Shown here piece by piece: positions 4,905-64,000 of a stretch of DNA of 64,000 nucleotides. Source of the DNA: Gammaproteobacteria bacterium (GTDB lineage: Bacteria > Pseudomonadota > Gammaproteobacteria > QZLD01); assembly GCA_033852075.1 (NCBI GenBank), contig JAWSVC010000012.1:25788-89787 (forward strand). Reading direction: 5' to 3'. How positions within the stretch are numbered: the first letter of the stretch is position 1; each line of letters starts with the position of its first letter. The notes beneath the pieces are model-generated. The model was not told the DNA's origin. It searched no databases and saw nothing but the letters and a program-made list of their open reading frames with translations. A program made the translations under genes and the position numbers.

Positions 4905-5011
4905 GTGACTGAAATGGCTAAAACAGAAGGTTGTCTTCGTATAAAATTAAGAATCACAAATATGAACTAATTGATAGTGAATAGGTAAAACTATAAGGCA
5001 GATAGCAATCA

Positions 5012-7658: not shown

Positions 7659-7700
7659 TATTTATGGCAGACAAAATAACTATATAGAAACTGGTGTGGT

Positions 7701-34631: not shown

Positions 34632-36425
34632 ATGAGTACAAAAAAACTTGGAATTACCGACGTAGTATTACGTGACGCACACCAATCACTATTTGCGACC
34701 AGAATGCGCTTGGAAGATATGCTTCCAATCGCTGATAAACTAGATAAAGTTGGCTACTGGTCAGTTGAAACTTGGGGTGGAGCTACATTTGATTCCTGTA
34801 TTAGATTCCTAGGCGAAGATCCATGGGATAGAATCCGTCAATTAAAAGCGGCTATGCCAAATACTCCGCAGCAAATGCTTTTCCGTGGTCAAAATATTCT
34901 TGGTTACAGACATTATGCTGATGACGTAGTAAGAAAATTTGTTGAAAGAGCGGCTGTAAACGGAGTTGACGTATTCCGTGTATTTGACGCAATGAATGAT
35001 CCACGTAATCTTGAGACGGCGATTAAAGCAGTTATCGAGAATGAAAAGCACGCTCAAGGTACTCTATCTTACACAACCAGCCCAGTTCATACTCTTGAGT
35101 CATGGTGTAAGCTTGCCAAGCAAATTGAAGAGATGGGCGCTCATTCTGTTTGTATTAAAGATATGTCTGGTTTGCTCAAGCCTTATGATGCCTATGAATT
35201 AATCACTGCTCTTAAGAAAGAGATTAGTATCCCTGTTCATATGCAATGTCATGCAACAACAGGTCTTTCTGTTCCAACTTATTTAAAGGCTGCTGAAGCT
35301 GGTATCGATAATGTTGATACTTCTATTTCTTCAATGTCTATGACATATGGTCACTCTGCTACTGAGACTGTTGTTGCAATGCTTGAAGGTACAGAAAGAG
35401 ATACAGGTCTTGATATCGGCCTTATGGAAGAGATTGCAGCATACTTCCGTGAAGTTCGTAAGAAATATGCAAAATTTGAAGGCGCGCTTAAAGGTGTTGA
35501 TTCAAGAATTCTTGTTGCTCAGGTTCCTGGTGGAATGTTAACCAACATGGAAAATCAGCTTAAAGAACAAAATGCAATTGACAAGCTTGATGCTGTACTT
35601 GAAGAGATTCCACGTGTACGTGAAGACCTTGGTTATATTCCTTTGGTAACTCCAACTTCACAGATCGTTGGTACTCAAGCGGTTCTTAACGTTCTGACTG
35701 GTGAAAGATACAAAACCATCACTAAAGAGACTGCTGGTATCCTTAAAGGTGAATACGGTGCAGCTCCTTCTGAGCTTAATAAAGAGCTTCAGGAAAGAGT
35801 TCTTGATGGTGGTGAAGCTATCACTTGTCGTCCAGCAGATCTTCTTGAGCCAGAAGTTGAAAAACTTACTGTTGAGCTTAAAGATATTGCTAAAGAGAAG
35901 GGAATTAAACTTGCTAAGAACGAGATTGATGACGTTCTTACCTATGCTCTATTCCCACAAGTTGGTCTTAAGTTCCTTGAGAATCGTGGTAATCCAGATG
36001 CATTTGAGCCGGCTCCAACTGCTGAAGATGCAGCGCCAGCAGCTGCAACAACTAAGACAGCAGGTGGTGCAGATGTTTACACAGTAACAGTTGCTGGTCA
36101 CAGTTATGTGGTTCAGGTAGAAGATGGTGGTGATATTTCTCAAATTGCTCATGCGGTTCCTGTGGTAGGTGCTTCATCTCATACTACTGCTGCACCATCA
36201 GGGTCGGTAGGAGGAGAAGCGATTCCTGCGCCACTTGGTGGACATGTTCATAAGATACCAGTATCTGTTGGTCAGCAAGTTAACGAAGGTGATGTGATTA
36301 TTATCCTTGAAGCGATGAAGATGGAGACAGAAGTTCGTGCCAGCAAGGCAGGTTCTATTGCTGAAATCTGTGTTAAAGAAGGCGAGACTGTTGCTGTTGG
36401 CGATACTCTTCTAACTTTGGCCTAA
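34632..36425 (+). CDS. oadA: Na+-pumping oxaloacetate decarboxylase alpha subunit
   Basis: [25 protein letters not shown], biotinyl EAMKM. Confidence 0.98.
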
Positions 36426-36435
36426 TTTAAATATC

Positions 36436-36460
36436 TAAGTCCCGACTAAGTCGGGACTTA
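36436..36460. other. Intercistronic perfect 11-bp hairpin (oadA/oadB)
   Basis: TAAGTCCCGAC-TAA-GTCGGGACTTA. Confidence 0.65.
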
Positions 36461-36481
36461 TTTGCTTGAGGATTTTATCCA

Positions 36482-37738
36482 ATGGAAAATGTTTTAAATC
36501 TAGTATATGGCTCAGGGATAGCAAACATATCTCTTGGTCAGGCCCTTATGTTGGCAGTGGGATTACTTTTGCTTTTCCTTGCTATCAAGAAGGGATTTGA
36601 GCCTCTATTGCTTGTGCCAATTGGTTTTGGTGCAATTTTATCAAATATTCCAGTAGCAGGCCTTGCTGAATCAGCAGTGTCGCAAGCGCTGCACTATGGG
36701 TCTGATGAAGTTATTGCAGCCATTAATCAAGCTCTTGGTGGTGTTTCATATTACGAAGCTTCAGCAACTGCACAAATGGCAGCAAAAGAGATAGCTCATC
36801 ATGCTAATTATGCTGATGGAATTCTTTATCTATTTTATAGTGTTGGATTAACGACAGGTGCATTTCCTCTGATCATCTTTATGGGGGTTGGTGCTATGAC
36901 TGATTTCGGTCCGCTATTAGCTAATCCTAAAACTCTGCTTTTAGGTGCCGCTGCTCAGTTCGGTATTTTTGTGACCCTTATTGGTGCAATTGCATTACAG
37001 TTCTCTGGTCAGGAGGCGGCGGCGATTGGTATCATTGGTGGTGCTGATGGACCGACTGCTATTTATGTTGCTACTAAATTAGCTCCACATCTTTTAGGAG
37101 CAATCGCTGTAGCTGCTTATTCATATATGGCATTGGTTCCAATGATTCAGCCGCCCATCATGAAACTGTTTACGTCTAAAGAAGAGCGGGAAATTAAGAT
37201 GACTCAGTTAAGGCCGGTATCTCAAACTGAGAAGATTCTGTTTCCAATAGTGCTTCTTCTTCTAGTTGCTCTACTGTTACCAGATGCAGCCCCTCTACTT
37301 GGTATGTTCTGTTTTGGTAATCTTATGAAAGAGAGTGGAGTGGTAGATCGCCTTAGTGATACAACGCAAAATGCTTTGATTAACGTTGTTACCATATTTC
37401 TTGGTCTTTCTGTTGGTTCAAAATTACAAGCCAGTCAATTCTTACAGTTTGATACCCTCAAGATTCTCTCTCTGGGGATAGTTGCGTTCGGTATTGGTAC
37501 TGCTTGTGGAGTGTTAATGGCTAAGCTTATGAATAAACTAAGTGGTACTCCAATAAATCCACTTATTGGTTCAGCGGGGGTATCGGCGGTTCCAATGGCT
37601 GCTCGTGTGTCGAATAAGGTTGGCCTTGAGGCGAATCCTCAAAACTTTTTGCTTATGCACGCTATGGGGCCTAACGTGGCTGGTGTTATTGGGTCGGCTG
37701 TTGCAGCTGGTGTATTGCTCAAGTATTTTGGATCATAG
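36482..37738 (+). CDS. oadB: Na+-translocating decarboxylase beta subunit
   Basis: [47 protein letters not shown]. Confidence 0.98.
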
Positions 37739-42062: not shown

Positions 42063-42635
42063 ATGGAATTAAAAGGTAGTAAAACCGAAAAAAATCTTAT
42101 GGCTTCGTTTGCAGGTGAGTCTCAAGCAAGAAACCGTTATACCTATTTTGCTGCTAAGGCTAGAAAAGAAGGTTATAGGCAAATAGCGGAAATCTTTGAA
42201 GAGACTGCGAATCAAGAAAAAGAACATGCTAAGCGTTTCTTTAAGTTTTTGCAGGGTGGTGACGTAGAGATTGTTGCTTGTTTTCCTGCTGGTGTAATTG
42301 GGTGTACTGTTGATAATCTAAAGGCTGCTGCTTGCGGTGAAAATGAAGAGTGGACTGAACTTTATCCAGAATTTGCTAAAACAGCAAGAGAAGAAGGGTT
42401 TGATAAGATTGCAGATGCTTGGGATGCAATTTCTATTGCTGAAAAACAGCATGAGAAACGTTATAGAGATCTTGCAAAAAATATTGAAGAAGGAAAAGTC
42501 TTCCAAAAAGATGGAGTTGTTACTTGGCGTTGTCTAAACTGTGGTTATCTGCATCAGGGAGATGCGGCACCAGAAGTTTGTCCAGCTTGTGTTCATCCTC
42601 AAGCTCATTTTGAGCTGTTTGGAGAAAACTATTAG
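42063..42635 (+). CDS. rbr: Rubrerythrin
   Basis: FAGESQARNRY, EKEHA, EKQHEKRY, C-terminal rubredoxin domain CLNCG..CPAC. Confidence 0.97.
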   Translation: MELKGSKTEKNLMASFAGESQARNRYTYFAAKARKEGYRQIAEIFEETANQEKEHAKRFFKFLQGGDVEIVACFPAGVIGCTVDNLKAAACGENEEWTELYPEFAKTAREEGFDKIADAWDAISIAEKQHEKRYRDLAKNIEEGKVFQKDGVVTWRCLNCGYLHQGDAAPEVCPACVHPQAHFELFGENY

Positions 42636-42680
42636 TTCGGAAATAAACATTTTCGTGGCAATAATAAATAAGGAGTTATT

Positions 42681-43055
42681 ATGACTACCAGAAACGAAGT
42701 GTATAAATGCAACCTTTGTGGAAATATTGTTACTGTTTCTCATCAAGGTCCAGGTGAGCTCGTTTGTTGTAATCAACCTATGAATCTTAGAACCGAAAAT
42801 ACAACCGATGCGGCAACAGAAAAGCATGTTCCAGTTGTTAAAAAGGTCGATGGCGGTTATAAGGTTACTGTAGGTGAGGTTATGCATCCAATGCAAGATG
42901 ATCACTATATTGAGTGGATTGAATTGATTGCAGGCGATGTTGTGCTAAGGGAATACCTAAAACCAAATCAAGATCCAGTTGCAGTATTTAAAACTGATGC
43001 AAATAATGTTGTTGTTAGAGAATATTGTAATTTGCACGGGTTGTGGAAGGCTTAG
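42681..43055 (+). CDS. dfx: Desulfoferrodoxin (2Fe superoxide reductase)
   Basis: YKCNLCGN..LVCC desulforedoxin domain, EKHVP, HPMQDDHYIEWI, YCNLHGLW. Confidence 0.97.
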   Translation: MTTRNEVYKCNLCGNIVTVSHQGPGELVCCNQPMNLRTENTTDAATEKHVPVVKKVDGGYKVTVGEVMHPMQDDHYIEWIELIAGDVVLREYLKPNQDPVAVFKTDANNVVVREYCNLHGLWKA

Positions 43056-53395: not shown

Positions 53396-53908
53396 ATGCT
53401 AAGTGAAAAAATGGTAACAAAACTAAATGATCAGATTGGTATAGAGTTTTTTTCATCAAATATATATCTGCAGATGTCAGCATGGGCAGACAGTCAAGGT
53501 CTTGAGAATTGTGCAGCATTTTTTAGAGAGCATGCAACAGAAGAAATGATGCATATGCAGAAGATGTTTGACTATATGTGTGAAAAAGGAGCAATGCCTG
53601 TTTTAGGTCAAATTGACAAACCAAAAGCAGACTATGTATCTATTCATGAAGTTTTTGAACAAGCATATGAACATGAAAAGTTTGTTACAGGAACTATTAA
53701 TGACCTTGTTAGTGTGTCGTATGAAGAGAAAGACTGGGCAACATTTAATTATTTACAGTGGTTTGTTGCAGAGCAGGTAGAGGAAGAAGCTTTATTTAGC
53801 AAGGTTCTAGATAAAATCAAACTTATTGGAACTGGTGGCGAATCTTTATACTTTCTTGATCAAGAAATTGGAACATTTGTTGGTGGAGAATCTAAGTCAG
53901 GAACATAA
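53396..53908 (+). CDS. ftnA: Non-heme ferritin
   Basis: EFFSSNIYLQMSAW, EEMMH, HEKFVT, LQWFVAEQVEEE. Confidence 0.95.
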   Translation: MLSEKMVTKLNDQIGIEFFSSNIYLQMSAWADSQGLENCAAFFREHATEEMMHMQKMFDYMCEKGAMPVLGQIDKPKADYVSIHEVFEQAYEHEKFVTGTINDLVSVSYEEKDWATFNYLQWFVAEQVEEEALFSKVLDKIKLIGTGGESLYFLDQEIGTFVGGESKSGT

Positions 53909-53997
53909 GTTTTAGTAAAGTAATAACTTACATTAAAGGTTGCGGATTGTTGTGTATTTTCTATTCGTATAATTACAATTAATTAATGAGGATAATA

Positions 53998-54459
53998 ATG
54001 ACTCTTAATATTAATGATATAGCACCAAAATTTATATTAAATAATCAGGATGATTCTCAAGTTAATCTTGAACAATATAAGGGACAAAAGGTATTGCTAT
54101 ATTTTTATCCTAAAGCGGATACTCCTGGATGTACCAAGCAGACATGCCTTTTAAATGATAATCTTGGACAACTAAATCAGCTTAATGTGGTGGTTCTTGG
54201 GATTAGCCCTGACAAGGTCGAGAAACAGAAAAAATTTGCTGATAAATATGGAATTAATTTTTCATTGCTAAGTGATGAAGGTCATAATGTGGCTGAGTTA
54301 TATTCGGTTTGGGGTGAAAAAAAGATGTACGGTAGGTCATATATGGGGATAATACGCTCTGCGTTCCTTATAAATGAAGAAGGAAAAATTAGTGAAACCT
54401 GGTATAAGGTTTCGCCAAAAGATACCGTGACGAAAGCATTAAAAAAGCTTGAATCATAA
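53998..54459 (+). CDS. bcp: Thioredoxin-dependent thiol peroxidase (Bcp/PrxQ)
   Basis: YFYPKADTPGCTKQTC, GISPD, WGEKKMYG..GIIRS. Confidence 0.95.
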   Translation: MTLNINDIAPKFILNNQDDSQVNLEQYKGQKVLLYFYPKADTPGCTKQTCLLNDNLGQLNQLNVVVLGISPDKVEKQKKFADKYGINFSLLSDEGHNVAELYSVWGEKKMYGRSYMGIIRSAFLINEEGKISETWYKVSPKDTVTKALKKLES

Positions 54460-54622
54460 TGATGTAACACTGATTAGAATTATTTTGATATAGTGCGAAT
54501 GTTTTAGAAGAAAGAGTTCTATAAAAAATTAGATTTCTAGTCTAGATTTAAAGAAGTATATCTGGTTGTAATTTTTGCTTTATTACAACCAGACAAGCCA
54601 AATTATTTAAGGAGAATTAATA

Positions 54623-54946
54623 ATGGCAGTTGTAAATATCACATCACAGGCATATGAAGAAGCTATTCAAAAATATGAAATCGTAATCATTGATTTTTGG
54701 GCAACATGGTGTGGTCCATGTAAAGCATTTGGCCCTGCATTTGAAGCTGTTGCAGAAAAGGTAACTGCTGAAAACTCAAATATTCTTTTCGCTAAATGTG
54801 ATACCGAACAAGAAAGTGAACTTGCCGCAAAGTTTCGTATTAGATCCATTCCAACAGTTGTTGTGATTAAGAATGGCGAAATTGCGGAAGTTAAGATGGG
54901 CGCAATGTCTCAGTCACAATTCGAGCAGTTTGTAGCTGGAATTTAA
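54623..54946 (+). CDS. Thioredoxin (second paralogue)
   Basis: FWATWCGPCK; preceded by hairpin TCTGGTTGTAAT..ATTACAACCAGA (54561-54593) and RBS AAGGAG. Confidence 0.95.
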   Translation: MAVVNITSQAYEEAIQKYEIVIIDFWATWCGPCKAFGPAFEAVAEKVTAENSNILFAKCDTEQESELAAKFRIRSIPTVVVIKNGEIAEVKMGAMSQSQFEQFVAGI

Positions 54947-54991
54947 TTTTTTAAAGCGCCTGTGTTTTTAATGCAAGGATTAGCATAAGTA

Positions 54992-56185
54992 ATGAAAACA
55001 GATTATCTCATTATCGGTAATGGTATTGCCGGAACTACCGCAGCTGAAAATATCAGGAAAATTGATGCGCAGGCGCAAATTTTTATTGTTACTAATGAGC
55101 ACACTCCATTCTATTCAAGGATTAGATTACCTGAATATATAGCGGGTGATATCACTAAAGATAAATTAGTGGTTAGAAAGGAAAGCTGGTATCAGGAAAA
55201 AAATATAACTTTGTGTACCGGTGTGCAAATTGCCTCTATTGATATTGATGAGAAAGTTGCAATTGCCGAAGATGGACAAAGATTTGAATTTGATAAGTTA
55301 CTTTATGCTGCTGGCAGCCATTCATTTATTCCCAGAATTAATGGTAATACTTTAGATGGTGTTTTTGCGCTAAGAAATATTGATGATGCAGAAAGAATAA
55401 TTGAATACAAGAATGGTAAATCATCCATAGTGATACTAGGTGGTGGTTTATTAGGCCTTGAAATTGGCTATTCAATGATTCAGTGTGGACTGAAAGTTAC
55501 GGTTGTCGAACTTTCAGATCATTTATTGCCTAAGCAGATTGATAAAGAAGGCGGAGCATTCCTGAAAAAACAATTGGAAAAAATTGGATTCAATTTTATT
55601 TTAGGAGATGCTGCTACAGAGATTGTTGGTAATCAACAAGCGCAAGTAGAACGTGTTATTTTAAAAAGCGGTATGGTTATACCTACTGATATGGTTTTAG
55701 TATCTGCTGGTGTGAGGCCAAATCTTGAACTGGCAAAGAATTCAGGAATTAAAACTAATATTGGCCTGATAATAGATAAGAACTTACATACTAGTGCGCA
55801 AGATATATATGCTGCTGGTGATCTTATTGAATTTGAAAGCAGTTTATACGGCAGTTGGATGATTGCTATGGAGCAAGGAAAGCTTGCTGCTTTGAATATG
55901 ACAGGCAATAGTGTCTATTATACTGGTTCTGTAATGTCAATGATGCTAAAAGTTGTTGGTATTGAATTGGGATCTGTAGGTAACCACGATCCTGAGCATA
56001 AGTTAGAATCTGACTTTATTCATACCGATGATTCATTTAAAAGAATCATTTTTGATAAAGAAAAGGTTGTTGGGTGTGTGATGATTGGTAATAAAAAAGG
56101 TTTTCTTCAAATATCAAAACATATTGCTCAAGGTGATTTGGTATCAGAGATAGCCCCGGAACTTTTGCAGCTAACACCGCAGTAA
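54992..56185 (+). CDS. NAD(P)H/FAD-dependent oxidoreductase, rubredoxin-reductase (NROR)-like
   Basis: IGNGIAG, YSRIRL, GGGLLGLE, GVRPN, IYAAGD; close to rubredoxin. Confidence 0.85.
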   Translation: MKTDYLIIGNGIAGTTAAENIRKIDAQAQIFIVTNEHTPFYSRIRLPEYIAGDITKDKLVVRKESWYQEKNITLCTGVQIASIDIDEKVAIAEDGQRFEFDKLLYAAGSHSFIPRINGNTLDGVFALRNIDDAERIIEYKNGKSSIVILGGGLLGLEIGYSMIQCGLKVTVVELSDHLLPKQIDKEGGAFLKKQLEKIGFNFILGDAATEIVGNQQAQVERVILKSGMVIPTDMVLVSAGVRPNLELAKNSGIKTNIGLIIDKNLHTSAQDIYAAGDLIEFESSLYGSWMIAMEQGKLAALNMTGNSVYYTGSVMSMMLKVVGIELGSVGNHDPEHKLESDFIHTDDSFKRIIFDKEKVVGCVMIGNKKGFLQISKHIAQGDLVSEIAPELLQLTPQ

Positions 56186-56199
56186 TTAAAGGAAACCAA

Positions 56200-56691
56200 A
56201 TGAATTCATCTGATAATGGAATAATTGAGATTATAGATAAAGGAATAGAGCTTGAGCTTCTATTGTCTGATCTATATATGGGATTTAGTGAGTATTTTAA
56301 AGATGACCGAGATTTCTGGTGGAGATTGTCGGTTGAAGAAAAGCATCATGCATCATTTTTAGAAAGTGGGAAAGAGGTGCTTTTACCATTCGATAAGTTT
56401 CCTAAAGAGATTTTACCTAAAAGTTTGGAAGAGCTTAATCAGGTAAGTAATCAAATAAAAAAAGTGATTTGTTATTGTGAAGATAAATCGATATCTCGTG
56501 AGGAAGCTTTTAACTATGCAGTTTATATTGAAGGTTCTGCTGGAGAGGCGCATTATCAATCTGCATTAGAAAAAGATATTGATTCTGACGTAATACGTGT
56601 CTTTCATGTGCTAAATGAGGGAGATAAAAACCATAAACAGCGAATTTTAGCGTACATGAAAGAGCGCGATATCTCTATAAATGAAGAATAA
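56200..56691 (+). CDS. Ferritin-like/rubrerythrin-family di-iron protein
   Basis: E..L..LY..F, FWWRLSVEEKHHA, E..A..GEAHYQ, DKNH motifs. Confidence 0.75.
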   Translation: MNSSDNGIIEIIDKGIELELLLSDLYMGFSEYFKDDRDFWWRLSVEEKHHASFLESGKEVLLPFDKFPKEILPKSLEELNQVSNQIKKVICYCEDKSISREEAFNYAVYIEGSAGEAHYQSALEKDIDSDVIRVFHVLNEGDKNHKQRILAYMKERDISINEE

Positions 56692-56717
56692 TTTTTTAAT
56701 AATAATTGGAGTTTTTT

Positions 56718-56879
56718 ATGAAAAAGTATGTATGTGATGTTTGTGGATATATATATGATCCTGAGGCAGGAGATCCTGATAATGACATAGAGCCAGGCAC
56801 AGTTTGGGAAGATGTACCTGAAGGTTGGATTTGTCCATTATGTGGTGCTGGAAAAAATGACTTTAGTGAGGTTGAATAA
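56718..56879 (+). CDS. Rubredoxin (53 aa, below the ORF-track cut-off)
   Basis: Manual translation [53 protein letters not shown]; RBS GGAG. Confidence 0.97.
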
Positions 56880-57013
56880 CCTTTATATTTTGCAGCCTTG
56901 CCCGTGATTTCTTATACTCACGGGCGTAATAAAATTTCAAAATAGTTATACCTCGCCACCTTTTTTGGGTATCATCGAACGCTACTCAAACTTCTTTAGT
57001 AGTTGTTATCATC

Positions 57014-57835
57014 ATGAATGCACTCAGAGCTAGACTGCGTATTTATTTATTGCTATTGGTATTGGTTATGGTAACCGGTTCCTTAGGATTTATGTATTTT
57101 GAAGGTCTAAGTTTTCTAGATTCTATCTATATGAATATTGTCACCATGTCTACAGTAGGGTATGGAGATATACAGCCAACTACCGTCGCTGGTAAATTTA
57201 TTGTTATCTTTATAATCATTGGTGGTGTTGTTTCATTTGTTGGAGCAATATCTAATGCTACAGAGTTAATGATCTATAAAGGTGAGAATAAACGTCACAA
57301 CGAAAAAATTAATATGGTAATTGGGGCTTTTTTCAGTGAAGTAGGAACTGAGTTATTAGGATATTTTTGCCAGTTTGACAAAAATATCGATAAGATCCGA
57401 AATGACTTGATTATTAATGATAATTGGGATGAAGTAATGTTCTCAGAAATTCATAAAACCATTATGAATCATTATTTTGAATTTGAAATTAATGGTGAAG
57501 AATTATTGGGAATAAGAAGATTCTTGATGAGCAGAAGAGAATTTATGGTTAGATTGCTTGAGAACCCGATTCTGCTTGAGCAAGAAAAATTTACTCGTTT
57601 GTTGCGAGAAGTTTTTCATGTTACCGAAGAATTAACAGCAAGAACCAAACTGGAAGAATCTCCTATCTCAGATATAAAGCATATATCTAATGATATGCGG
57701 AAAGCATGTGTTTTATTGGTTCACCAATGGTTGGATTATATGTTCTACATAAAGAATAATTATCCAAATTTGTTTTCATTTGCATCACGTGTTAACCCTT
57801 TTGTGGTTAACTCATCACCTGTAATAATCGAGTAA
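57014..57835 (+). CDS. Two-TM potassium channel family protein
   Basis: Selectivity filter TMSTVGYGD flanked by TM helices. Confidence 0.88.
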   Translation: MNALRARLRIYLLLLVLVMVTGSLGFMYFEGLSFLDSIYMNIVTMSTVGYGDIQPTTVAGKFIVIFIIIGGVVSFVGAISNATELMIYKGENKRHNEKINMVIGAFFSEVGTELLGYFCQFDKNIDKIRNDLIINDNWDEVMFSEIHKTIMNHYFEFEINGEELLGIRRFLMSRREFMVRLLENPILLEQEKFTRLLREVFHVTEELTARTKLEESPISDIKHISNDMRKACVLLVHQWLDYMFYIKNNYPNLFSFASRVNPFVVNSSPVIIE

Positions 57836-57838
57836 TAT

Positions 57839-58570
57839 ATGTTCTTCAACTTCGCAAGATCAAGAGATAATAAGCCAGAAAAAAAGCAAAGATTGCACTT
57901 TATCCAACATGTTGAGTTTGAATCAATAGGTATTATAGAGGATTGGGCTTTAGAAAAAGGAATGGATATTACATCGACAAAGATGTATCTCGACGAAGAA
58001 CTTCCAGATAGAAATGAACTAAGAGATATTGATATTCTTTTAATAATGGGTGGTCCCATGAATATTTATGAATATGCTGAATATCCATGGTTGAAGGAAG
58101 AAAAAATCTTTTTAAAAAAGGCGATAAGAGAAGCCACTATATTTAAAAAATTGGCCATTGTTGGTATTTGTCTTGGAGCTCAACTCATATCTGATGCTTT
58201 AGGGGGTACTGTAAGCCAGAACCAATATAAAGAGATTGGGTGGTTTCCTATAAGATCAACTAATGATCTTTTACCTGATGATATTAGTGTTTTTCATTGG
58301 CATAACGATACTTTTTCAATACCAAAAGGTGCTAGTTGTATTGCTTATAGTGAAGGGTGTGCTAATCAGGCATTTATTTATAAACAGCAGGTAATTGGTC
58401 TTCAGTTTCATCTTGAGTTGACAATGGATAATATAAATACCATATATACTAACTGCGTAAATGAATTGGAATCAGGCCCTTATATTCAAAAGCAAAACAT
58501 TTCTGATTCCAGAAGAATTAATACCGCTAATGGCGTTATAACAGAAATATTAGAGAAAATGCTTAAGTAA
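57839..58570 (+). CDS. Type 1 glutamine amidotransferase-like protein
   Basis: MGGPMN, GICLGAQL, HWHNDTF, LQFHLE. Confidence 0.9.
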   Translation: MFFNFARSRDNKPEKKQRLHFIQHVEFESIGIIEDWALEKGMDITSTKMYLDEELPDRNELRDIDILLIMGGPMNIYEYAEYPWLKEEKIFLKKAIREATIFKKLAIVGICLGAQLISDALGGTVSQNQYKEIGWFPIRSTNDLLPDDISVFHWHNDTFSIPKGASCIAYSEGCANQAFIYKQQVIGLQFHLELTMDNINTIYTNCVNELESGPYIQKQNISDSRRINTANGVITEILEKMLK

Positions 58571-58607
58571 TTGTGTTTAAAATGTCAGGCATGAATCTGT
58601 ATTTGCA

Positions 58608-58622
58608 TGTTATTTTATAACA
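58608..58622. promoter_or_regulatory. TGTTA-N5-TAACA palindrome upstream of the hydrogenase operon
   Basis: TGTTATTTTATAACA. Confidence 0.4.
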
Positions 58623-58743
58623 ATTTGTTTTGTTTAAATATTTATTCCAATAATTCCTCCCCAAATTTCCGCATACAATGAAAAACTGTTCTATATTTAA
58701 AATAATAATTATTAGTTATTAATCCAATCCCAGGGAGGGACAT

Positions 58744-60402
58744 ATGTATATTCCAAGTAATGATGATATTCGAAAATTACTCGAAGAAATTAAAAATGAA
58801 TATTCAATGGAGAAAAAATCACTAATACCAATACTTCAGGATGTGCAAAAGGAATATGGATATATTCCAGAGTACGCGATGCAGGAAATTGGTGTTATGT
58901 TAGGGATCAGTTCTGCAGAAGTGTATGGAGTAGCTACATTTTATAGTTTCTTACAGGTTGAACCTAAAGGTAAATATCATGTTGCTCTAAGTATAGATAT
59001 GCCATCAAAGATGGCTGGAGTTGATGATGTAGCAGAAAGGCTTGAAAAAGAACTAGGAATTAAAATGGGTGAGACCACATATGACAGAATGTTCTCGCTT
59101 GAATGGACTGGTTGCGTAGGTATTTCTGATCTCTCTCCTGCCATGATAATTAATGAAAAGATTTTTCCATTGGTAACCCCGGATAAGGCAAGCGATATTG
59201 TCAGAAGGTTACGTGCGGGTGAAGAAGTTGAGTCTGAGTTACCAAAAAGTGTGACGAATGATTTAACCTTTGATCAGGTTCAAGAGGATTCTGGTTTAAA
59301 GAAAGCACTTGAAATGTCATCTGAAGATGTACGTAGCCTAGTTAAAGAATCAGGTCTTAGAGGGCATGGTGGAGCAGGTTTTCCAACAGGATTGAAGTGG
59401 GATTTTTGTGCTGGAGCCGAAGGTGATATTAAATATGTAGTTTGTAATGCTGATGAAGGTGAGCCTGGATGTTTTAAAGACATGCTTATTTTTGATCGGT
59501 TTGCAGATAAAGTAGTAGAAGGTATGACTATTGCTGGTTATGCCGTAGGAGCCAAAGAAGGTATTCTCTATATTAGATGGGAATATGCCTTTATGAGAGA
59601 AAGACTGGAAGCTTTACTTGAGACAAAGCGTAACAATAGTATGCTGGGCAAAAACATTTGCGGAAAAGATTTTGATTTTGATATCCAGTTGTATTTTGGC
59701 GCAGGTGCATATGTTTGTGGTGAAGAAACTGCGCTAATTGAATCTATTGAAGGACATAGAGGAGAGCCTAGAAATAAACCACCATTTCCAGTTACCGATG
59801 GTTTATTTGGTAAACCTACTAACGTAAATAATGTTGAGACCTTTGCTTGGATTCCTTGTATTTTTGATAAGGGGGCGGCTTGGTATAACTCAGTTGGTGT
59901 TGATAAGAGCAAAGGCTATAAATTATTCAGTATAGCCGGAGATTGTCATAAACCTGGAGTGTATGAACTACCTTGGGGTATGACGTTGAATGATATTGTA
60001 AAACTGGTTGATGCAGAAAACCCTATGGCAATTCAGATCGGAGGATATTCTGGTCAATTAGTTCCTGCAAGTAAGTTTGACCGCAAACTATCATACGAAG
60101 ATTTAGCAACTGGTGGATCGGTCATTATTTACAATAAAGATCGTAATTTATTCGATATTGCAGAAAACTACCTTGAGTTCTTTATTGAAGAATCATGTGG
60201 GCAATGTACCCCATGTAGATGGGGCAATACAGCATTGCTTAATCATGTAGAAAAAATGAGAGCAGGTAAGGTAACCCCAAAAGAAGAAAAAGACATTAAA
60301 ACTTTATGTGAAACAATGTTGCTAACTTCAAAATGCGGGTTAGGGCAGACAAGTCCTAATATTGTAAAAAATCTGATGAATGATTTCGCAGACCAACTTT
60401 AA
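58744..60402 (+). CDS. NAD(H)-dependent [FeFe]-hydrogenase diaphorase subunit (NuoE-NuoF fusion, HydB/HoxF-like)
   Basis: LIPILQDVQ..GVATFYSF (NuoE-like); GLRGHGGAGFPTG, CNADEGEPG, GAGAYVCGEE, ESCGQCTPCR..CGLG. Confidence 0.9.
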   Translation: MYIPSNDDIRKLLEEIKNEYSMEKKSLIPILQDVQKEYGYIPEYAMQEIGVMLGISSAEVYGVATFYSFLQVEPKGKYHVALSIDMPSKMAGVDDVAERLEKELGIKMGETTYDRMFSLEWTGCVGISDLSPAMIINEKIFPLVTPDKASDIVRRLRAGEEVESELPKSVTNDLTFDQVQEDSGLKKALEMSSEDVRSLVKESGLRGHGGAGFPTGLKWDFCAGAEGDIKYVVCNADEGEPGCFKDMLIFDRFADKVVEGMTIAGYAVGAKEGILYIRWEYAFMRERLEALLETKRNNSMLGKNICGKDFDFDIQLYFGAGAYVCGEETALIESIEGHRGEPRNKPPFPVTDGLFGKPTNVNNVETFAWIPCIFDKGAAWYNSVGVDKSKGYKLFSIAGDCHKPGVYELPWGMTLNDIVKLVDAENPMAIQIGGYSGQLVPASKFDRKLSYEDLATGGSVIIYNKDRNLFDIAENYLEFFIEESCGQCTPCRWGNTALLNHVEKMRAGKVTPKEEKDIKTLCETMLLTSKCGLGQTSPNIVKNLMNDFADQL

Positions 60403-60425
60403 TTGCAGCTACGGAGAGTATAACA

Positions 60426-62276
60426 ATGAGTGAAAATGGAAAAATGGTTACTGCAACTATCGATGATATTCAGGTTAGTGTACCTGAAGGGACAACTATT
60501 CTTAACGCAGCAAAAGGTGTTGGTATTAAGATTCCGACTCTATGTAATCACGATGATTTAAAACCAAAAGGGTTGTGTAGGGTTTGTGTTGTTGAGATTG
60601 AAGGTTATAGGAATTTGCAAACATCCTGCACCATGCCTTTAGAAGAGGGTATGGTAATTAATACCAATAGCCACACGGTGAGAAAAGCGAGACGTGATCT
60701 TGTTGATCTGGAACTTTCAAATCATACCGGCACATGTTACACATGTAATCGTAGTCGTAACTGCACATTAAGAGAATTAGCTGATGAATGTGGAGTAACT
60801 GAATTTAGATTTGGTGAAAAGCAAAAGGCTGAGCATAGAATTGAGGATTCAGGACTCTTTATTGTGCGCGATATGAATAAATGCGTGCAGTGTCGTAACT
60901 GTGAAAGAGCATGTAAAGAGCTTCAGGCAGTTGGTGCTTATGATATGAAAGATCGCAGCAATAAGATTAAGATTGCTGCGTTTGCAGATAAAGATTTGGA
61001 AGATACTGTATGTATAAATTGCGGTCAGTGTATTACCCACTGTCCAACTGGTGCTTTGTCGGTTAAGGATGAGGTTGCAAAGGTCTGGCAAATGATTGAA
61101 GATCCAACCAAACATGTGGTAATTCAAACTGCTCCGGCTCCAAGGTCTGCTATCGGTGAATGTTTTGGTAATGAGCCTGGTGAAGCGGCAATGACATTTC
61201 AGTTGGCTACAGCACTTCGTCGTTGTGGTTTCGATAGTGTATTTGATACAACTTTTACAGCTGATTTAACAATCATTGAAGAGGCAACCGAACTTCTTAT
61301 CAGACTGAAAAAGGCATTGGTAGATAAGGATGAAACAGTAGCTTTGCCGCAGTTTACCAGTTGTTCTCCTGGTTGGATTAAATACTTAGAACACTTTAAA
61401 CCAGAGATGATTCCAAATGTATCTTCAGCTAAAAGCCCACAGCAGATGTTTGGTGCAGTAATTAAGACCTACTATGCGCAAAAGAATAACATTGATCCTA
61501 AAGATATTGTATCTGTTGCTTTAATGCCTTGCGTGGCGAAAAAATTTGAATGCAGTCGTCCGGAGATGAACGATAGCGGATACAAAGATGTTGATATTGT
61601 TCTTACAACAGAAGAAGCAGCGGGAATGATTAAAGAGGCTGGTATGGATCTGCGTAAGGTGCCAAAGGGTAAGTATGATGATCCTTTTGGAGTATCAACA
61701 GGTTCTGGTGTGATTTTTGGAGCAACAGGTGGTGTAATGGAAGCTGCGCTTAGAACTGCTGCAGAGCTTATAACCGGGCTAAAAATTGAAGATCTGTTTG
61801 AGCATGCAAACATTACTCCTGTGCGTGGTTTTGAAGGTTCCAGAATTGCAGAAATTACATTAGATCAGGTTGGTGAAGTGCCAGAAATTCTTAAAGGTCA
61901 TTTTAATGATTGGGAATGGCTGAAAGGCGCGACTTTGAAAGTTGGTGTCGCGCATGGTACTGCTAATGCCAAGAAGGTACTGGCAGATATTGAAGCCGGC
62001 GGTCCATTCAGTGAATGTCATTTTATTGAGTTTATGGGATGTCCTGGCGGATGTCTAGCGGGTGGAGGTATGCCGCGCCCAGTAAATATGGATGTGCGTG
62101 AGGCTCGTGCTAAATTAATATATGAAGAGGATATGAATTACGAATATCGTAAATCGCATGAAAACCCTGAAGTGGCTCATTTATATCAAGAGTTTTTCAC
62201 TGAAGGCCCTTGCGGTCATAAGTCTCATGAGTTACTGCATACTCACTATACCGCAAGAGGTAGGTTAATTGATTAG
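60426..62276 (+). CDS. hydA: Group A [FeFe]-hydrogenase catalytic subunit
   Basis: N-terminal 2Fe-2S, HxxxCxxCxxxxxC, 2x[4Fe-4S]; H-cluster motifs FTSCSPGW, MPCVAKKFE, EFMGCPGGCLAGGG; C-terminal RKSHENP..LLHTHY. Confidence 0.96.
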   Translation: MSENGKMVTATIDDIQVSVPEGTTILNAAKGVGIKIPTLCNHDDLKPKGLCRVCVVEIEGYRNLQTSCTMPLEEGMVINTNSHTVRKARRDLVDLELSNHTGTCYTCNRSRNCTLRELADECGVTEFRFGEKQKAEHRIEDSGLFIVRDMNKCVQCRNCERACKELQAVGAYDMKDRSNKIKIAAFADKDLEDTVCINCGQCITHCPTGALSVKDEVAKVWQMIEDPTKHVVIQTAPAPRSAIGECFGNEPGEAAMTFQLATALRRCGFDSVFDTTFTADLTIIEEATELLIRLKKALVDKDETVALPQFTSCSPGWIKYLEHFKPEMIPNVSSAKSPQQMFGAVIKTYYAQKNNIDPKDIVSVALMPCVAKKFECSRPEMNDSGYKDVDIVLTTEEAAGMIKEAGMDLRKVPKGKYDDPFGVSTGSGVIFGATGGVMEAALRTAAELITGLKIEDLFEHANITPVRGFEGSRIAEITLDQVGEVPEILKGHFNDWEWLKGATLKVGVAHGTANAKKVLADIEAGGPFSECHFIEFMGCPGGCLAGGGMPRPVNMDVREARAKLIYEEDMNYEYRKSHENPEVAHLYQEFFTEGPCGHKSHELLHTHYTARGRLID

Positions 62277-62417
62277 GAATCTATAATTTACTGCCTGCGG
62301 TAATTAATCGCTGTGTTGGGCGGTGCTCACAATCCTCATGTATTACATATACACTCCGGTTGCTGCGCTCCGTCCGCCTTGTGCTTAATCACCTCGGCTA
62401 ATAAATTAATGATTCCT
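62275..62417. repeat. 143-bp palindromic MITE/RPE-like element
   Basis: Terminal IR AGGAATC/GATTCCT with nested complementarity (AATTTA/TAAATT, GGCGG/CCGCC). Core GCTCACAATCCTCATGTA..TACACTCCGGTTGCTGCGCTCCG resembles Rickettsia-palindromic-element-like repeats (from memory). Confidence 0.7.
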
Positions 62418-62462
62418 TGAGATTTTGCACAACACTGTAGTAATAAATTTTAGCCATTGAAA

Positions 62463-62487
62463 ATATCTGACTAAAATAGTCGGAATA
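62463..62487. promoter_or_regulatory. IscR type-1-like (Rrf2) site upstream of hydG
   Basis: ATATCTGACTAAAATAGTCGGAATA vs ATASYYGACTRWWWYAGTCRRSTAT: 20/25, with a perfect GACT-N5-AGTC core. Confidence 0.6.
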
Positions 62488-62502
62488 ATTGTTGTAACTA
62501 AC

Positions 62503-62530
62503 CGAAGAGCCTGCTAATGTAGGCTCTTCG
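62503..62530. other. 12-bp hairpin in the hydG leader
   Basis: CGAAGAGCCTGC-TAAT-GTAGGCTCTTCG (one G-U pair), no U-tail. Confidence 0.55.
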
Positions 62531-62572
62531 TCCTTATGGACATTGTGTTTAATACCTATTTTGAGAAAAAAT

Positions 62573-63952
62573 ATGACTGCTATTATTGATGATAAAAAAA
62601 TACTTCAGGAATTAGAAAACGCTTCACAAGATCAAGCAAAGGTTAAAGAAGTGCTTGCAAAAGGGCGAGAACTGAAAGGATTATCATTAAGTGAAGTTGC
62701 TGTCTTATCCAATATTACCGATCCAGACCTGGTTCAGGAATTGTTCGAAACTGCGAAATACGTTAAAGAAGAGATTTACGGAAATCGTCTAGTTATTTTT
62801 GCTCCACTGTATATTTCTAATCTTTGTGCAAATGAGTGTTCATACTGTGCGTTCAGGGCTGGAAATAAAGCAATTCATCGTCGTGTACTGAATCAGGCAG
62901 AGATTGCGGAAGAAACCAGAATTTTAATCGAAAGTGGTCATAAACGTGTGCTAATGGTTGCTGGTGAATCATATCCAAAACAAGGCTTCAATTATGTCCT
63001 GGATTCAATAGATACCATATACAGTGTAAAAGACGCTCACGGCAGTAGTATACGCAGAATCAATGTTAATGTAGCTCCGCTTACAGTTGAAGAATTTAAG
63101 TTGCTGAAAGGAAAAGGGATTGGTACATATCAAATCTTTCAGGAAACTTATAATCGTGATGTATATAGCAAGGTGCATCTGCGTGGTAAAAAGACAGATT
63201 TTGACTGGCGTGTAACTGCGATTGATCGTGCTATGGAAGCAGGTATAGATGACTGCGGTGTTGGAGTGCTATTCGGATTAGCGGAATGGAAGTATGAAAT
63301 ATTAGCACTTATGCAACATATCAATTACCTGGAAGATAAATTTGGTGTGGGGCCGCACACCATTAGTGTACCCCGTATGGAGTTTGCAACAGGATCTGCT
63401 ATATCAGAACACCCTCCGGCAGAGGTTTCTGATGAGGACTTTTTAAAGATTGTTGCCATTTTGCGTATAGCGGTTCCATATACCGGAATTATTATGTCGA
63501 CTCGTGAAGGACCAAGTCTACGAGGCAGAACTTTGGATTTGGGTGTGTCGCAAATTTCTGCAGGAAGTCGTACTAACCCAGGTGGATACTCTGATGATCA
63601 TGAAGATATGAGTCAGTTTTCACTTGGTGATCACCGTTCATTAGATGAAGTGATCCGAGATATTACCCAAAAAGGCTATATACCTTCGTTTTGCACAGGT
63701 TGTTATCGACTGGGTAGAACAGGTGAGGATTTCATGGATCTTGCTAAACCTGGTCTAATCAAACAGCACTGCGGCCCAAATGCAGCTTCATCGTTCATGG
63801 AATTCTTACGTGATTATGCCTCGGAAGAAACCAAAAATATCGGTATGGAAGCAATGGAGAAATTTATTGCTGAAATGGGCGAAAAAGAGCAGGAAGTTTC
63901 ACGCAAAATGGTTGATAAGGTTATTCATGGCAAAAATGATATTTATATCTAG
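62573..63952 (+). CDS. hydG: [FeFe]-hydrogenase H-cluster radical SAM maturase HydG
   Basis: FAPLYISNLCANECSYCAF radical-SAM motif, YQIFQETY, GPHTISVPR, C-terminal PSFCTGCYR..C; start probably ATG 62573. Confidence 0.96.
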   Translation: MTAIIDDKKILQELENASQDQAKVKEVLAKGRELKGLSLSEVAVLSNITDPDLVQELFETAKYVKEEIYGNRLVIFAPLYISNLCANECSYCAFRAGNKAIHRRVLNQAEIAEETRILIESGHKRVLMVAGESYPKQGFNYVLDSIDTIYSVKDAHGSSIRRINVNVAPLTVEEFKLLKGKGIGTYQIFQETYNRDVYSKVHLRGKKTDFDWRVTAIDRAMEAGIDDCGVGVLFGLAEWKYEILALMQHINYLEDKFGVGPHTISVPRMEFATGSAISEHPPAEVSDEDFLKIVAILRIAVPYTGIIMSTREGPSLRGRTLDLGVSQISAGSRTNPGGYSDDHEDMSQFSLGDHRSLDEVIRDITQKGYIPSFCTGCYRLGRTGEDFMDLAKPGLIKQHCGPNAASSFMEFLRDYASEETKNIGMEAMEKFIAEMGEKEQEVSRKMVDKVIHGKNDIYI

Positions 63953-64000
63953 CTGGTTAGTAAAAACATAATTTCTTTCATCTGCTATATTGTTAATAAT

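What the first reader, a model, noticed from the sequence alone, without database searches (positions are those of the whole stretch)
58744..62276. Dimeric [FeFe]-hydrogenase with a HoxF-like, cluster-stripped diaphorase: predicted non-bifurcating NADH-dependent enzyme
Seen: no separate HydC. The NuoE-like domain has lost three of four [2Fe-2S] cysteines (ALSIDMPSKMAG; GCVGISD), and there is no C-terminal 2x[4Fe-4S] domain. Motifs read DEGEPGCFKD, GAGAYVCGEE and GGYSG rather than the bifurcating-type DEGDPGAFMD, GAGAFVCGEE and GGPSG. HydA H-cluster motifs are intact. Knowledge: such features mark ferredoxin-independent NADH-dependent hydrogenases of syntrophs (e.g. Syntrophus HydAB), and Cys loss in this domain occurs in HoxF of NAD-reducing [NiFe] enzymes. 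Inference: H2 evolution from NADH only at low pH2, or H2-driven NAD+ reduction, in a gammaproteobacterial background.
Basis: partly seen in the sequence, partly recalled or inferred. Interest (0 to 1): 0.75.

Follow-up and report, generated by a model that had tools for sequence, protein, structure and literature searches.

The report
NADH-linked two-subunit [FeFe] hydrogenase operon
An uncultured anaerobic gammaproteobacterium carries a two-subunit iron-iron hydrogenase whose NADH-binding subunit has lost one iron-sulfur cluster and every part needed for ferredoxin coupling, so it most likely just interconverts NADH and hydrogen gas.

Summary
hydB (58744-60402), hydA (60426-62276) and hydG (62543-63952) are intact. 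HydB is a NuoE-NuoF fusion with S83/S88/C124/S128 at the four [2Fe-2S] ligand positions. It has no C-terminal 2x[4Fe-4S] domain and carries the motifs DEGEPGCFKD, GAGAYVCGEE and GGYSG.

One correction: HydA's first H-cluster motif is TSCSPGW, with Ser in place of a cluster-ligating Cys. This variant is already known from the active Acetobacterium woodii enzyme.

The reading as a non-bifurcating NAD(H)-linked enzyme is supported by sequence, not by assay. hydE and hydF lie on other contigs. The same genome holds a second, Hnd-type [FeFe] hydrogenase with the bifurcating-type motifs, which serves as an internal contrast.

The cluster-less HydB is not unique. 61 of the 120 closest homologues share the loss, and three metagenome loci show the same hydB-hydA-hydG order. 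On the tree this clade nests among four-Cys HydB proteins, and [NiFe] HoxF is sister to the whole group. The characterised Syntrophus HydB keeps all four Cys.

Verdict: a real, uncharacterised variant of a known enzyme kind, of moderate interest.

The parts
58733..58739 (+). Shine-Dalgarno-like GGGAGGG, 4 bases before the hydB ATG
   Evidence: Read directly from the sequence.
58744..60402 (+). hydB: 552-aa NuoE-NuoF fusion, the diaphorase (beta) subunit
   Evidence: ORF. Pfam domains. Homologues cover 100% of the length. AF2 model has mean pLDDT 86.5.
58783..59211 (+). NuoE-like thioredoxin-fold domain (residues 14-156) without a complete [2Fe-2S] site
   Evidence: PF01257, 142.5 bits. Ligand columns read S83, S88, C124, S128.
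58990..59127 (+). Degenerate [2Fe-2S] ligand region (residues 83-128), 3 of 4 Cys replaced
   Evidence: Alignment with four-Cys relatives and with HoxF 5xf9_A.
59341..59856 (+). NuoF FMN/NADH-binding domain (residues 200-371) with DEGEPGCFKD and GAGAYVCGEE
   Evidence: PF01512, 144.4 bits. Motifs.
60154..60396 (+). NuoF [4Fe-4S] (N3/B1-type) domain (residues 471-551), the only predicted Fe-S cluster of HydB
   Evidence: PF10589, 82.9 bits. ESCGQCTPCR and SKCGLG are present.
60426..62276 (+). hydA: 616-aa M3-type [FeFe] hydrogenase catalytic subunit
   Evidence: NF040763 'group A6', 767 bits against a cut-off of 765. TIGR02512, 455 bits. Pfam Fer2_4, NADH-G_4Fe-4S_3, Fer4 pair, Fe_hyd_lg_C, Fe_hyd_SSU.
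61356..61376 (+). H-cluster motif L1 in the variant form TSCSPGW (residues 311-317)
   Evidence: phmmer alignments to 7q4v_A, 8a6t_A and CpI. 119 of 120 closest homologues read TSCSPGW and 1 reads TSCSPAW.
62543..63952 (+). hydG: radical-SAM H-cluster maturase
   Evidence: TIGR03955, 520.4 bits against a cut-off of 312. The true start may be the ATG ten codons further in (translation).

Best explanation
hydB-hydA(-hydG) encodes a two-subunit, flavin-containing [FeFe] hydrogenase that couples NAD+/NADH directly to H+/H2, without ferredoxin and without electron bifurcation. Inferred path: NADH gives a hydride to FMN in the NuoF part of HydB. Electrons then pass one at a time through the single HydB [4Fe-4S] cluster, the HydA N-terminal [2Fe-2S], the His-ligated [4Fe-4S] and the two ferredoxin-type [4Fe-4S] clusters, and reach the H-cluster. 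The [4Fe-4S] part of the H-cluster has a natural Ser ligand here. The NuoE-like domain of HydB remains as a cluster-free scaffold, as in HoxF of NAD+-reducing [NiFe] hydrogenases. By thermodynamics the enzyme makes H2 from NADH only at very low H2 pressure and otherwise runs as an H2:NAD+ oxidoreductase. Shown: genes, domains, ligand loss, motifs, maturases, relatives and synteny. Inferred: cofactor content, electron path, ferredoxin independence and direction in vivo.
For: Domain content and ligand loss. HydB lacks the clusters that the Bfu family paper calls invariant in bifurcating BfuBC; passages of PMC9304861 say that non-bifurcating homologues lack B2-B5. Deleting the HydB C-terminus gave low bifurcation activity in HydABC (PMC10021017 passage). 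Losey criteria (PMC7311640 section 17): K at position 234, Y at 367 and no GGPSG are all in the non-bifurcating state. Internal contrast: the second hydrogenase of the same genome (contig C23) has a separate four-Cys HydC, a small thioredoxin-like ORF, and a HydB2 with DEGDPGAFMD, GAGAFVCGEE, GGPSG and a C-terminal 2x[4Fe-4S]. The best PDB fold match for full-length HydB is HoxF 5xf9_A (TMq 0.89, rmsd 2.7 over 545 columns); bifurcating HydB chains match only the NuoF core (TMq about 0.64). The trait is conserved: 61 of 120 closest homologues have lost 2 or more of the 4 Cys and carry GGY[ST/A]G. They form one clade with support 98* (FastTree, 275 rows) and 99* (IQ-TREE quick, 59 rows). The hydB-hydA-hydG order recurs in L123 and L125, and hydB-hydA in L124, L094 and L095. 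The closest characterised relative, S. aciditrophicus HydAB, is NADH-dependent and ferredoxin-independent (PMC7311640 abstract and sections 17-18). HydE (367 bits), HydF (564 bits) and HydG are all above curated cut-offs. The Ser ligand is compatible with activity in A. woodii HydABC (PMC10021017 passage).
Against: There are no activity, cofactor or expression data; no RNA run was listed. The residue at T. maritima position 232 is Cys, which is neither of the two states listed by Losey et al.; 5 of the 120 homologues have Cys and 114 have Thr. The Losey criteria rest on few characterised enzymes. The only characterised dimeric HydAB keeps all four NuoE Cys, so no member of the cluster-less clade has been tested. 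The genome has PFOR and Rnf, so reduced ferredoxin is available and a ferredoxin contact elsewhere on HydA cannot be excluded. HydA scores only 2 bits above the NF040763 cut-off.
Confidence: 0.75

Rival explanations
1. The enzyme is still ferredoxin-dependent or bifurcating. It would borrow the missing modules (HydC and the small [2Fe-2S] protein) from the second hydrogenase locus on contig C23, or bind ferredoxin directly at HydA.
For: A separate four-Cys HydC and a thioredoxin-like [2Fe-2S] ORF exist in the genome. PFOR and Rnf are present. HydA keeps all the accessory clusters of M3-type enzymes, some of which accept ferredoxin.
Against: HydB itself lacks the C-terminal 2x[4Fe-4S] and the bifurcation-type residues. 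The fused NuoE-like domain already occupies the HydC position (fold match to HoxF). The three metagenome loci with the same HydB type (L123-L125) also show no separate hydC next to hydB-hydA within 5-kb flanks (tblastn typing only).
Confidence: 0.1
2. The chemistry is the same, but the physiological role is H2 uptake: an [FeFe] counterpart of the soluble NAD+-reducing [NiFe] hydrogenase that supplies NADH from H2. The NADH could go to complex I or to the NADH-dependent peroxide and superoxide defence encoded just upstream.
For: H2 to NAD+ is the exergonic direction. No [NiFe] hydrogenase was found in the genome, so this would be the only route from H2 to NADH. HoxF-like architecture. NuoH is present. 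Rubrerythrin, desulfoferrodoxin, Bcp, thioredoxin, ferritin and a rubredoxin-reductase-like flavoprotein lie 2.5-16.7 kb upstream on the same strand.
Against: Neighbourhood alone is weak evidence. No terminal oxidase was found with the two families tried. The Hnd-type enzyme could also take up H2. The characterised relative works in H2 evolution in syntrophy (PMC7311640).
Confidence: 0.3
3. The diaphorase uses NADP(H) rather than NAD(H).
For: Several homologues carry automatic names such as 'NADP-reducing hydrogenase HndD/HndC'.
Against: These are automatic names. The conserved CGEE motif, whose second Glu is said (recalled, not tested here) to disfavour NADPH in NuoF, is intact. The characterised relatives use NADH (PMC7311640).
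Confidence: 0.07
4. The hydrogenase is catalytically impaired or regulatory, because a Cys ligand of the H-cluster [4Fe-4S] is replaced by Ser.
For: TSCSPGW replaces TSCCPxW.
Against: The same replacement (Ser301) occurs in active A. woodii HydABC, with a normal H-cluster infrared signature (PMC10021017 passages). All 120 closest homologues carry Ser at this position. L2 and L3 are intact. hydG is adjacent.
Confidence: 0.03

Closest known systems
Syntrophus aciditrophicus HydAB (SYN_01369/01370), the characterised dimeric non-bifurcating NADH-dependent [FeFe] hydrogenase (Losey et al. 2020, PMC7311640)
   Same: Two genes. HydB is an N-terminal NuoE-like domain fused to NuoF, with no C-terminal 2x[4Fe-4S] domain. 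DEGEPGxFKD, Tyr in G.GAYVCGEE, and no GGPSG. HydA is M3-type.
   Different: Syntrophus HydB keeps all four NuoE Cys and reads GGAAG; it also has a short Cys-containing C-terminal tail (supplementary alignment). The window's HydB has 1 of 4 Cys, reads GGYSG and ends flush with the NuoF domain. The Syntrophus sequence itself was not placed on my tree; I saw it only in the supplement.
HoxF of the NAD+-reducing soluble [NiFe] hydrogenase (Hydrogenophilus thermoluteolus, PDB 5XF9/5XFA)
   Same: NuoE-NuoF fusion whose NuoE-like part lacks the [2Fe-2S] ligands but keeps the third Cys. Best whole-chain fold match, TMq 0.89. Sister group on the NuoF-core tree.
   Different: 33% identity. HoxF partners with HoxU, HoxY and HoxH, whereas no [NiFe] large subunit was found in this genome. 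HoxF sequences in my sample carry a 20-59 aa C-terminal extension and mostly a GPSG-type motif.
Electron-bifurcating HydABC / Hnd (T. maritima, A. woodii, T. kivui, D. fructosovorans); Bfu family
   Same: Homologous HydA and NuoF core. HydA is closest in the PDB to A. woodii HydA1 (543 bits) and shares its Ser ligand.
   Different: No separate HydC, no HydB N-terminal [2Fe-2S], no C-terminal 2x[4Fe-4S], and no A/M/F/GGPSG signature. The genome's other hydrogenase (contig C23) has all of these.
Nyctotherus ovalis hydrogenosomal [FeFe] hydrogenase polyprotein (PMC2216082)
   Same: [quoted passage not shown] Its 24-kDa module has also lost a [2Fe-2S] Cys (1 of 4, replaced by Trp; passage read).
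   Different: Eukaryotic single polypeptide with the modules at the C-terminus, and only one Cys lost.

Membership tests
Non-bifurcating NADH-dependent [FeFe] hydrogenase (criteria of Losey et al. 2020) | Beta subunit with NuoF FMN/NADH domain and [4Fe-4S], next to an H-cluster HydA | tested here: met
Non-bifurcating NADH-dependent [FeFe] hydrogenase (criteria of Losey et al. 2020) | Fewer Fe-S domains than bifurcating HydB (no C-terminal 2x[4Fe-4S], no extra N-terminal [2Fe-2S]) | tested here: met
   Pfam shows three domains only, and the protein ends at residue 552. C-terminal extension is 0.
Non-bifurcating NADH-dependent [FeFe] hydrogenase (criteria of Losey et al. 2020) | Thr/Ser at T. 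maritima HydB position 232 (bifurcating enzymes have Ala/Glu) | tested here: inconclusive
   The window has Cys (DEGEPGCFKD). 114 of 120 homologues have Thr and 5 have Cys.
Non-bifurcating NADH-dependent [FeFe] hydrogenase (criteria of Losey et al. 2020) | Lys/Ser/Ala at position 234 (bifurcating: Met), Tyr at position 367 (bifurcating: Phe), and no GGPSG | tested here: met
   K, Y and GGYSG. HydB2 of the same genome shows M, F and GGPSG.
Non-bifurcating NADH-dependent [FeFe] hydrogenase (criteria of Losey et al. 2020) | H2 production from NADH and NAD+ reduction by H2 without ferredoxin | not testable with these tools
   Needs an enzyme assay.
Bfu / bifurcating HydABC family (Schut et al. 2022) | Invariant BfuBC core with six Fe-S clusters (five in BfuB, one in BfuC) | tested here: not met
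   Only the NuoF [4Fe-4S] ligands are present. The NuoE-type site has 1 of 4 Cys, and there are no further Cys-rich domains.
HoxF of group 3d NAD+-reducing [NiFe] hydrogenase | Encoded with HoxU/HoxY/HoxH and part of a [NiFe] enzyme | tested here: not met
   The downstream gene is HydA. There is no PF00374 match in the genome, which is 100% complete by marker genes. On the tree it falls outside the HoxF clade.
HoxF of group 3d NAD+-reducing [NiFe] hydrogenase | NuoE-NuoF fusion with a cluster-free NuoE-like domain | tested here: met
NCBIfam NF040763, 'NADH-dependent [FeFe] hydrogenase, group A6' (HydA) | Score at or above the curated cut-off of 765 bits | tested here: met
   767 bits, which is marginal. 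The genome's other HydA scores 884 bits.
Functional [FeFe] hydrogenase (maturation) | HydE, HydF and HydG present in the genome | tested here: met
   HydG is adjacent at 520 bits. HydE is at C2:33615-34625, 367 bits. HydF is at C32:420-1589, 564 bits.
Functional [FeFe] hydrogenase (active site) | H-cluster motifs L1 TSCCPxW, L2 MPCxxKxxE, L3 ExMxCxxGCxxG | tested here: inconclusive
   L2 and L3 are met. L1 is TSCSPGW (Cys to Ser at a cluster ligand), a variant shown to be active in A. woodii HydABC.

The most novel reading that the evidence does not exclude
The cluster-less HydAB clade is the [FeFe] counterpart of the soluble NAD+-reducing [NiFe] hydrogenase: a minimal H2:NAD+ oxidoreductase. 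On this reading the off-pathway N1a/C1-type [2Fe-2S] cluster was discarded separately in HydB and in HoxF, because soluble H2/NAD(H) enzymes that do not bifurcate do not need it. In this anaerobic gammaproteobacterium the enzyme would work mainly in H2 uptake, feeding NADH to complex I or to the adjacent NADH-dependent oxygen and peroxide defence. The Hnd-type enzyme would handle fermentative H2 release.
Probability: 0.25. Interest if true: 0.7.

Novelty: new variant of a known kind. Interest (0 to 1): 0.5.

Why it matters
Dimeric NADH-only [FeFe] hydrogenases are known from a single characterised enzyme, which keeps its NuoE-type cluster. This window represents a large, unstudied sister clade in which that cluster is gone. 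It is a natural experiment on what the N1a/C1 cluster does in NuoEF-type modules. The clade also offers what looks like the simplest NADH-coupled [FeFe] hydrogenase, a candidate for H2-driven NADH regeneration. Such enzymes are probably mislabelled as 'bifurcating' in genome-based H2 budgets; this last point rests on recalled knowledge of how classifiers use the neighbouring NuoF gene. Finding a bifurcating-type and a non-bifurcating-type enzyme in one genome gives a clean system to test the sequence rules that tell the two apart.

Tried and rejected
- **Genome-contig scan with the full-length HydB alignment:** I used it instead as a sample of partner types.
- **metagenome scan with an N-terminal alignment:** Only 3 of 80 loci were of the cluster-less type.
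- **Promoter and terminator scan of 56600-64000:** 16 promoter-like sites against 27 expected, and 4 terminator-like sites against 4 expected. Not informative.
- **Rex-box search:** 8 matches against 7.3 expected, none upstream of hydB.
- **Rfam:** nothing at gathering threshold in the window. Only sub-threshold hits in the hydA-hydG spacer, and the spacer is single-copy in the genome.
- **Expression:** no RNA holder listed.
- **AU test of 'cluster-less HydB plus HoxF as one clade':** not rejected (p = 0.089), so a separate loss is favoured but not shown.
- **First alignment run:** timed out and was redone with faster settings.
- **Not run:** Complex prediction, because HydA-HydB is a textbook pair. 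The search of protein representatives was also not used.
- **Literature on a cluster-less HydB clade:** searches found no paper describing it. The Losey PDF supplements (Data_Sheet_1 and Data_Sheet_3) could not be read and may list such sequences.
Full report
**What is there**

The window is G000:C40:25788-89787, part of a 216-kb contig. The genome has 3.26 Mb in 58 contigs and is 100% complete by marker genes, with 0.28% contamination.

Three co-directional ORFs lie at the stated place:
- hydB, 58744-60402 (552 aa), preceded by GGGAGGG
- hydA, 60426-62276 (616 aa), 23 bases downstream of hydB
- hydG, 62543-63952, after a 266-base spacer

Pfam finds three domains in HydB: 2Fe-2S_thioredx (residues 14-156), Complex1_51K (200-371) and NADH_4Fe-4S (471-551).

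HydA has the full M3 architecture: Fer2_4, NADH-G_4Fe-4S_3, two ferredoxin-type [4Fe-4S] sites, Fe_hyd_lg_C and Fe_hyd_SSU. It reaches NCBIfam NF040763, 'NADH-dependent [FeFe] hydrogenase, group A6', at 767 bits against a cut-off of 765. HydG scores 520 bits on TIGR03955.

The gene upstream of hydB is a class-I glutamine amidotransferase, so the operon has no separate hydC.

In alignments with relatives that keep the four NuoE [2Fe-2S] cysteines, the window reads S83, S88, C124, S128. HydB ends flush with the NuoF [4Fe-4S] domain, with a C-terminal extension of 0 residues. DEGEPGCFKD, GAGAYVCGEE and GGYSG are all present.

One point needs correction. The first H-cluster motif is TSCSPGW, not TSCCPxW, so a cysteine that ligates the [4Fe-4S] part of the H-cluster is a serine. 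This is not a defect of this gene. Of the 120 closest HydA homologues, 119 read TSCSPGW and 1 reads TSCSPAW. The PDB chain 7q4v_A (A. woodii HydA1) has the same motif. Katsyv et al. report that this serine (Ser301) replaces a cysteine ligand in active A. woodii HydABC, without changing the H-cluster infrared signature (PMC10021017, passages read). Motifs L2 and L3 are canonical.

**Organism**

The window's PNPase is 93% and 79% identical to proteins named 'MAG: Gammaproteobacteria bacterium'. It is about 73% identical to proteins from Thiotrichaceae, Ectothiorhodospiraceae and Chromatiales MAGs.

Genome searches gave the following:
- PFOR is present at 1759 bits.
- RnfC is present at 568 bits.
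- NuoH is present.
- No cytochrome bd subunit I or ccoN was found.
- No [NiFe] large subunit was found.

The window also encodes rubrerythrin, desulfoferrodoxin, ferritin, Bcp, thioredoxin and a Na+-pumping oxaloacetate decarboxylase. This fits an anaerobe; aa3-type oxidases were not searched.

**Maturases and a second hydrogenase**

HydE (C2:33615-34625, 367 bits) and HydF (C32:420-1589, 564 bits) are present above the curated cut-offs.

The genome holds a second [FeFe] hydrogenase on contig C23. On one strand it encodes:
- a separate 174-aa HydC/HoxE-like protein with all four Cys
- a small thioredoxin-like ORF with Cys pairs
- a 491-aa HydB2 with DEGDPGAFMD, GAGAFVCGEE, GGPSG and a C-terminal 2x[4Fe-4S] region
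- a HydA2 with TSCCPAW, scoring 884 bits on NF040763

One genome therefore shows both states, which makes the motif reading more credible than a comparison from memory. Both loci also occur in the two same-genus genomes G144 and G311, so neither is a binning artefact.

**Relatives**

Among the 120 best HydB homologues (47-100% identity, all covering at least 96% of the query):
- 59 keep all four Cys and read GGASG or GGAAG.
- 61 have lost at least two Cys and read GGYSG, GGYTG or GGYAG. The patterns are SSCN 42, SSCS 6, SACD 4, SACS 2, SSCD 2, SSGD 2, and ACCN, ASCN and SSSD 1 each.

Several lines show that the cluster-less type is paired with HydA:
- Three metagenome loci, L123-L125, have SSCN HydB followed by HydA (55% and 67% identity to the window's N-terminal and H-domain parts). 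In L123 and L125 HydG follows as well.
- The same-genus loci L094 and L095 have the same HydB-HydA pairing.
- Five cluster-less HydB hits (P0007, P0009, P0011, P0019, P0026) share their longest-contig length with a top HydA hit (P0129, P0151, P0206, P0135, P0142). This suggests the same contig but does not prove it.

Fused HydB next to HydA was four-Cys there. The Cys-depleted fusions with a 20-59 aa C-terminal extension were HoxF of hoxFUYH [NiFe] operons. Four-Cys fusions without HydA belonged to formate dehydrogenases or complex I.

**Phylogeny**

The trees use the NuoF core, window residues 184-552.
- **FastTree, 275 rows:** the 66 cluster-less sequences form one clade (98*). It is sister to a 66-row, mostly four-Cys clade (98*), then to 20 further [FeFe]-partnered rows (96*). 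This whole group is sister to a 41-row HoxF clade (100*).
- **IQ-TREE quick search, LG+C20, 59 rows chosen by group, nine long-branch rows left out:** the picture is the same. The cluster-less clade has 14 rows (99*). The [FeFe] non-bifurcating group has 35 rows (SH-aLRT 94). HoxF has 11 rows (95*). The two together have 46 rows (99*).

On these trees the Cys loss in HydB is separate from that in HoxF. However, an AU test of the alternative, cluster-less HydB plus HoxF as one clade, gives a log-likelihood difference of 18.7 and p = 0.089, so the alternative is not rejected. I also named that group after seeing the first tree. The claim of a separate loss is therefore favoured, not established.

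**Structure**

An AlphaFold2 model of HydB, built from a 28-sequence alignment, has mean pLDDT 86.5 and pTM 0.88. Its best PDB match is HoxF of the H. thermoluteolus NAD+-reducing [NiFe] hydrogenase, 5xf9_A: TMq 0.89, rmsd 2.7 Å over 545 columns, 33% identity. Next comes the fused beta subunit of M. extorquens formate dehydrogenase (TMq about 0.85). Bifurcating HydB chains match only through the NuoF core (TMq about 0.64). The phmmer alignment to 5xf9_A runs from residue 27 to 552 and shows the same ligand pattern: no Cys at the first two positions, Cys at the third, Ser at the fourth.

**Comparison with what is characterised**

Losey et al. characterised the dimeric S. aciditrophicus HydAB as NADH-dependent and ferredoxin-independent. 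They proposed beta-subunit criteria that separate non-bifurcating from bifurcating enzymes (PMC7311640; abstract and sections 17 and 18 read).

The window's HydB meets the criteria at positions 234 (K) and 367 (Y), on GGPSG (absent) and on Fe-S domain count. At position 232 it has Cys, which is in neither list.

Their supplementary alignment shows that Syntrophus HydB keeps all four NuoE Cys and reads GGAAG. This matches their count of two [2Fe-2S] clusters per alpha-beta unit. The closest tested enzyme therefore belongs to the four-Cys kind. No member of the cluster-less clade appears to have been studied. Four literature searches found no description of it, and two PDF supplements of the Losey paper could not be read.

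Schut et al. define bifurcating Bfu enzymes by an invariant six-cluster BfuBC core that non-bifurcating homologues lack (PMC9304861, passages). The window's HydB has at most one of those six.

The N. ovalis polyprotein is a eukaryotic precedent for partial erosion of this site, with 1 of 4 Cys lost (PMC2216082, passage).

**Mechanism**

The most likely mechanism is a linear chain: NADH, FMN, the HydB [4Fe-4S], the HydA accessory clusters, then the H-cluster.

In complex I the NuoE cluster lies off the main path. This is established knowledge that I recall rather than tested. If so, its loss need not interrupt electron flow, and the HoxF structure shows that such a module works in an H2:NAD+ enzyme.

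NAD+/NADH is about 95 mV more positive than H+/H2 at pH 7. H2 release from NADH therefore needs very low H2 pressure; Losey et al. measured 2.2-40.2 Pa for the Syntrophus enzyme (abstract). The reverse reaction is favoured otherwise.

With a bifurcating-type enzyme also present, plus PFOR and Rnf, a division of labour between the two hydrogenases is plausible but untested.

**Rarity in the lineage**

A Pfam H-domain match was found in 5 of 400 sampled genomes of the same class, and 3 of those 5 belong to the window's genus. A HydB more than 43% identical was found only in that genus. The nearest HydB and HydA relatives outside the genus (55-67% identity) are unnamed or come from other phyla and classes. 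This suggests lateral acquisition; I did not test that formally.

**Verdict**

The enzyme is an uncharacterised variant of a known kind rather than a new kind of system. No expression evidence was obtainable.

Noticed in passing
G000 contig C23:78645-82756 (locus L207:6646-10757, minus strand); outside the window: A second [FeFe] hydrogenase operon of Hnd/HydABC(D) type. It encodes a separate four-Cys HydC, a small thioredoxin-like [2Fe-2S] ORF, HydB2 with DEGDPGAFMD/GAGAFVCGEE/GGPSG and a C-terminal 2x[4Fe-4S], and HydA2 with canonical TSCCPAW. A methyl-accepting chemotaxis protein gene lies upstream.
   Followed up: yes
window 61356-61376: HydA motif L1 is TSCSPGW: a serine replaces a cysteine ligand of the H-cluster [4Fe-4S]. 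All 120 closest homologues and A. woodii HydA1 share the serine. The genome's other HydA keeps the cysteine.
   Followed up: yes
window 42063-43055 and 53396-56691: A run of anaerobe-type oxidative-stress genes on the hydBA strand: rubrerythrin, desulfoferrodoxin, ferritin, Bcp peroxiredoxin, thioredoxin and a rubredoxin-reductase-like flavoprotein (397 aa). It ends with a 163-aa protein that has no Pfam or NCBIfam match.
   Followed up: partly
window 34632-37738: Alpha and beta subunits of a Na+-translocating oxaloacetate decarboxylase.
   Followed up: no
window 26-9029: Three large PAS/Cache sensor histidine kinases in a row, followed by a response regulator and a hybrid regulator-kinase.
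   Followed up: no
window 62277-62542: The 266-base hydA-hydG spacer looks richer in G+C than its surroundings (by eye; not measured) and has a hairpin at about 62505-62530. It gives only sub-threshold Rfam hits (best sX9, 28.5 bits against a gathering score of 44) and is single-copy in the genome.
   Followed up: partly
L211:2863-8099 (G000 C40:91862-97098); just past the window: A tandem duplication of a four-gene cassette: an enoyl-ACP-reductase-like SDR plus three MaoC-type dehydratases, present twice. A Rex-like gene (CoA_binding plus Put_DNA-bind_N) follows on the opposite strand. No Rex-box-like site was found upstream of hydB.
   Followed up: partly
G311:C27:188786-189466 and G144:C8:77439-78119: The two same-genus genomes carry a third, more distant H-domain gene (148-156 bits on PF02906). 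In G311 it lies about 7 kb from hydA. No counterpart was found in G000.
   Followed up: no
HydB residue 243 (window 59470-59472): Cys at the position that Losey et al. use as a marker (T/S in non-bifurcating, A/E in bifurcating enzymes). Among HydB homologues it was seen in 5 of the 120, namely the window's own protein and its four closest relatives. The same DEGEPGCFKD string occurs in some formate-dehydrogenase beta subunits (L060, L064, L078, L083, L087).
   Followed up: partly
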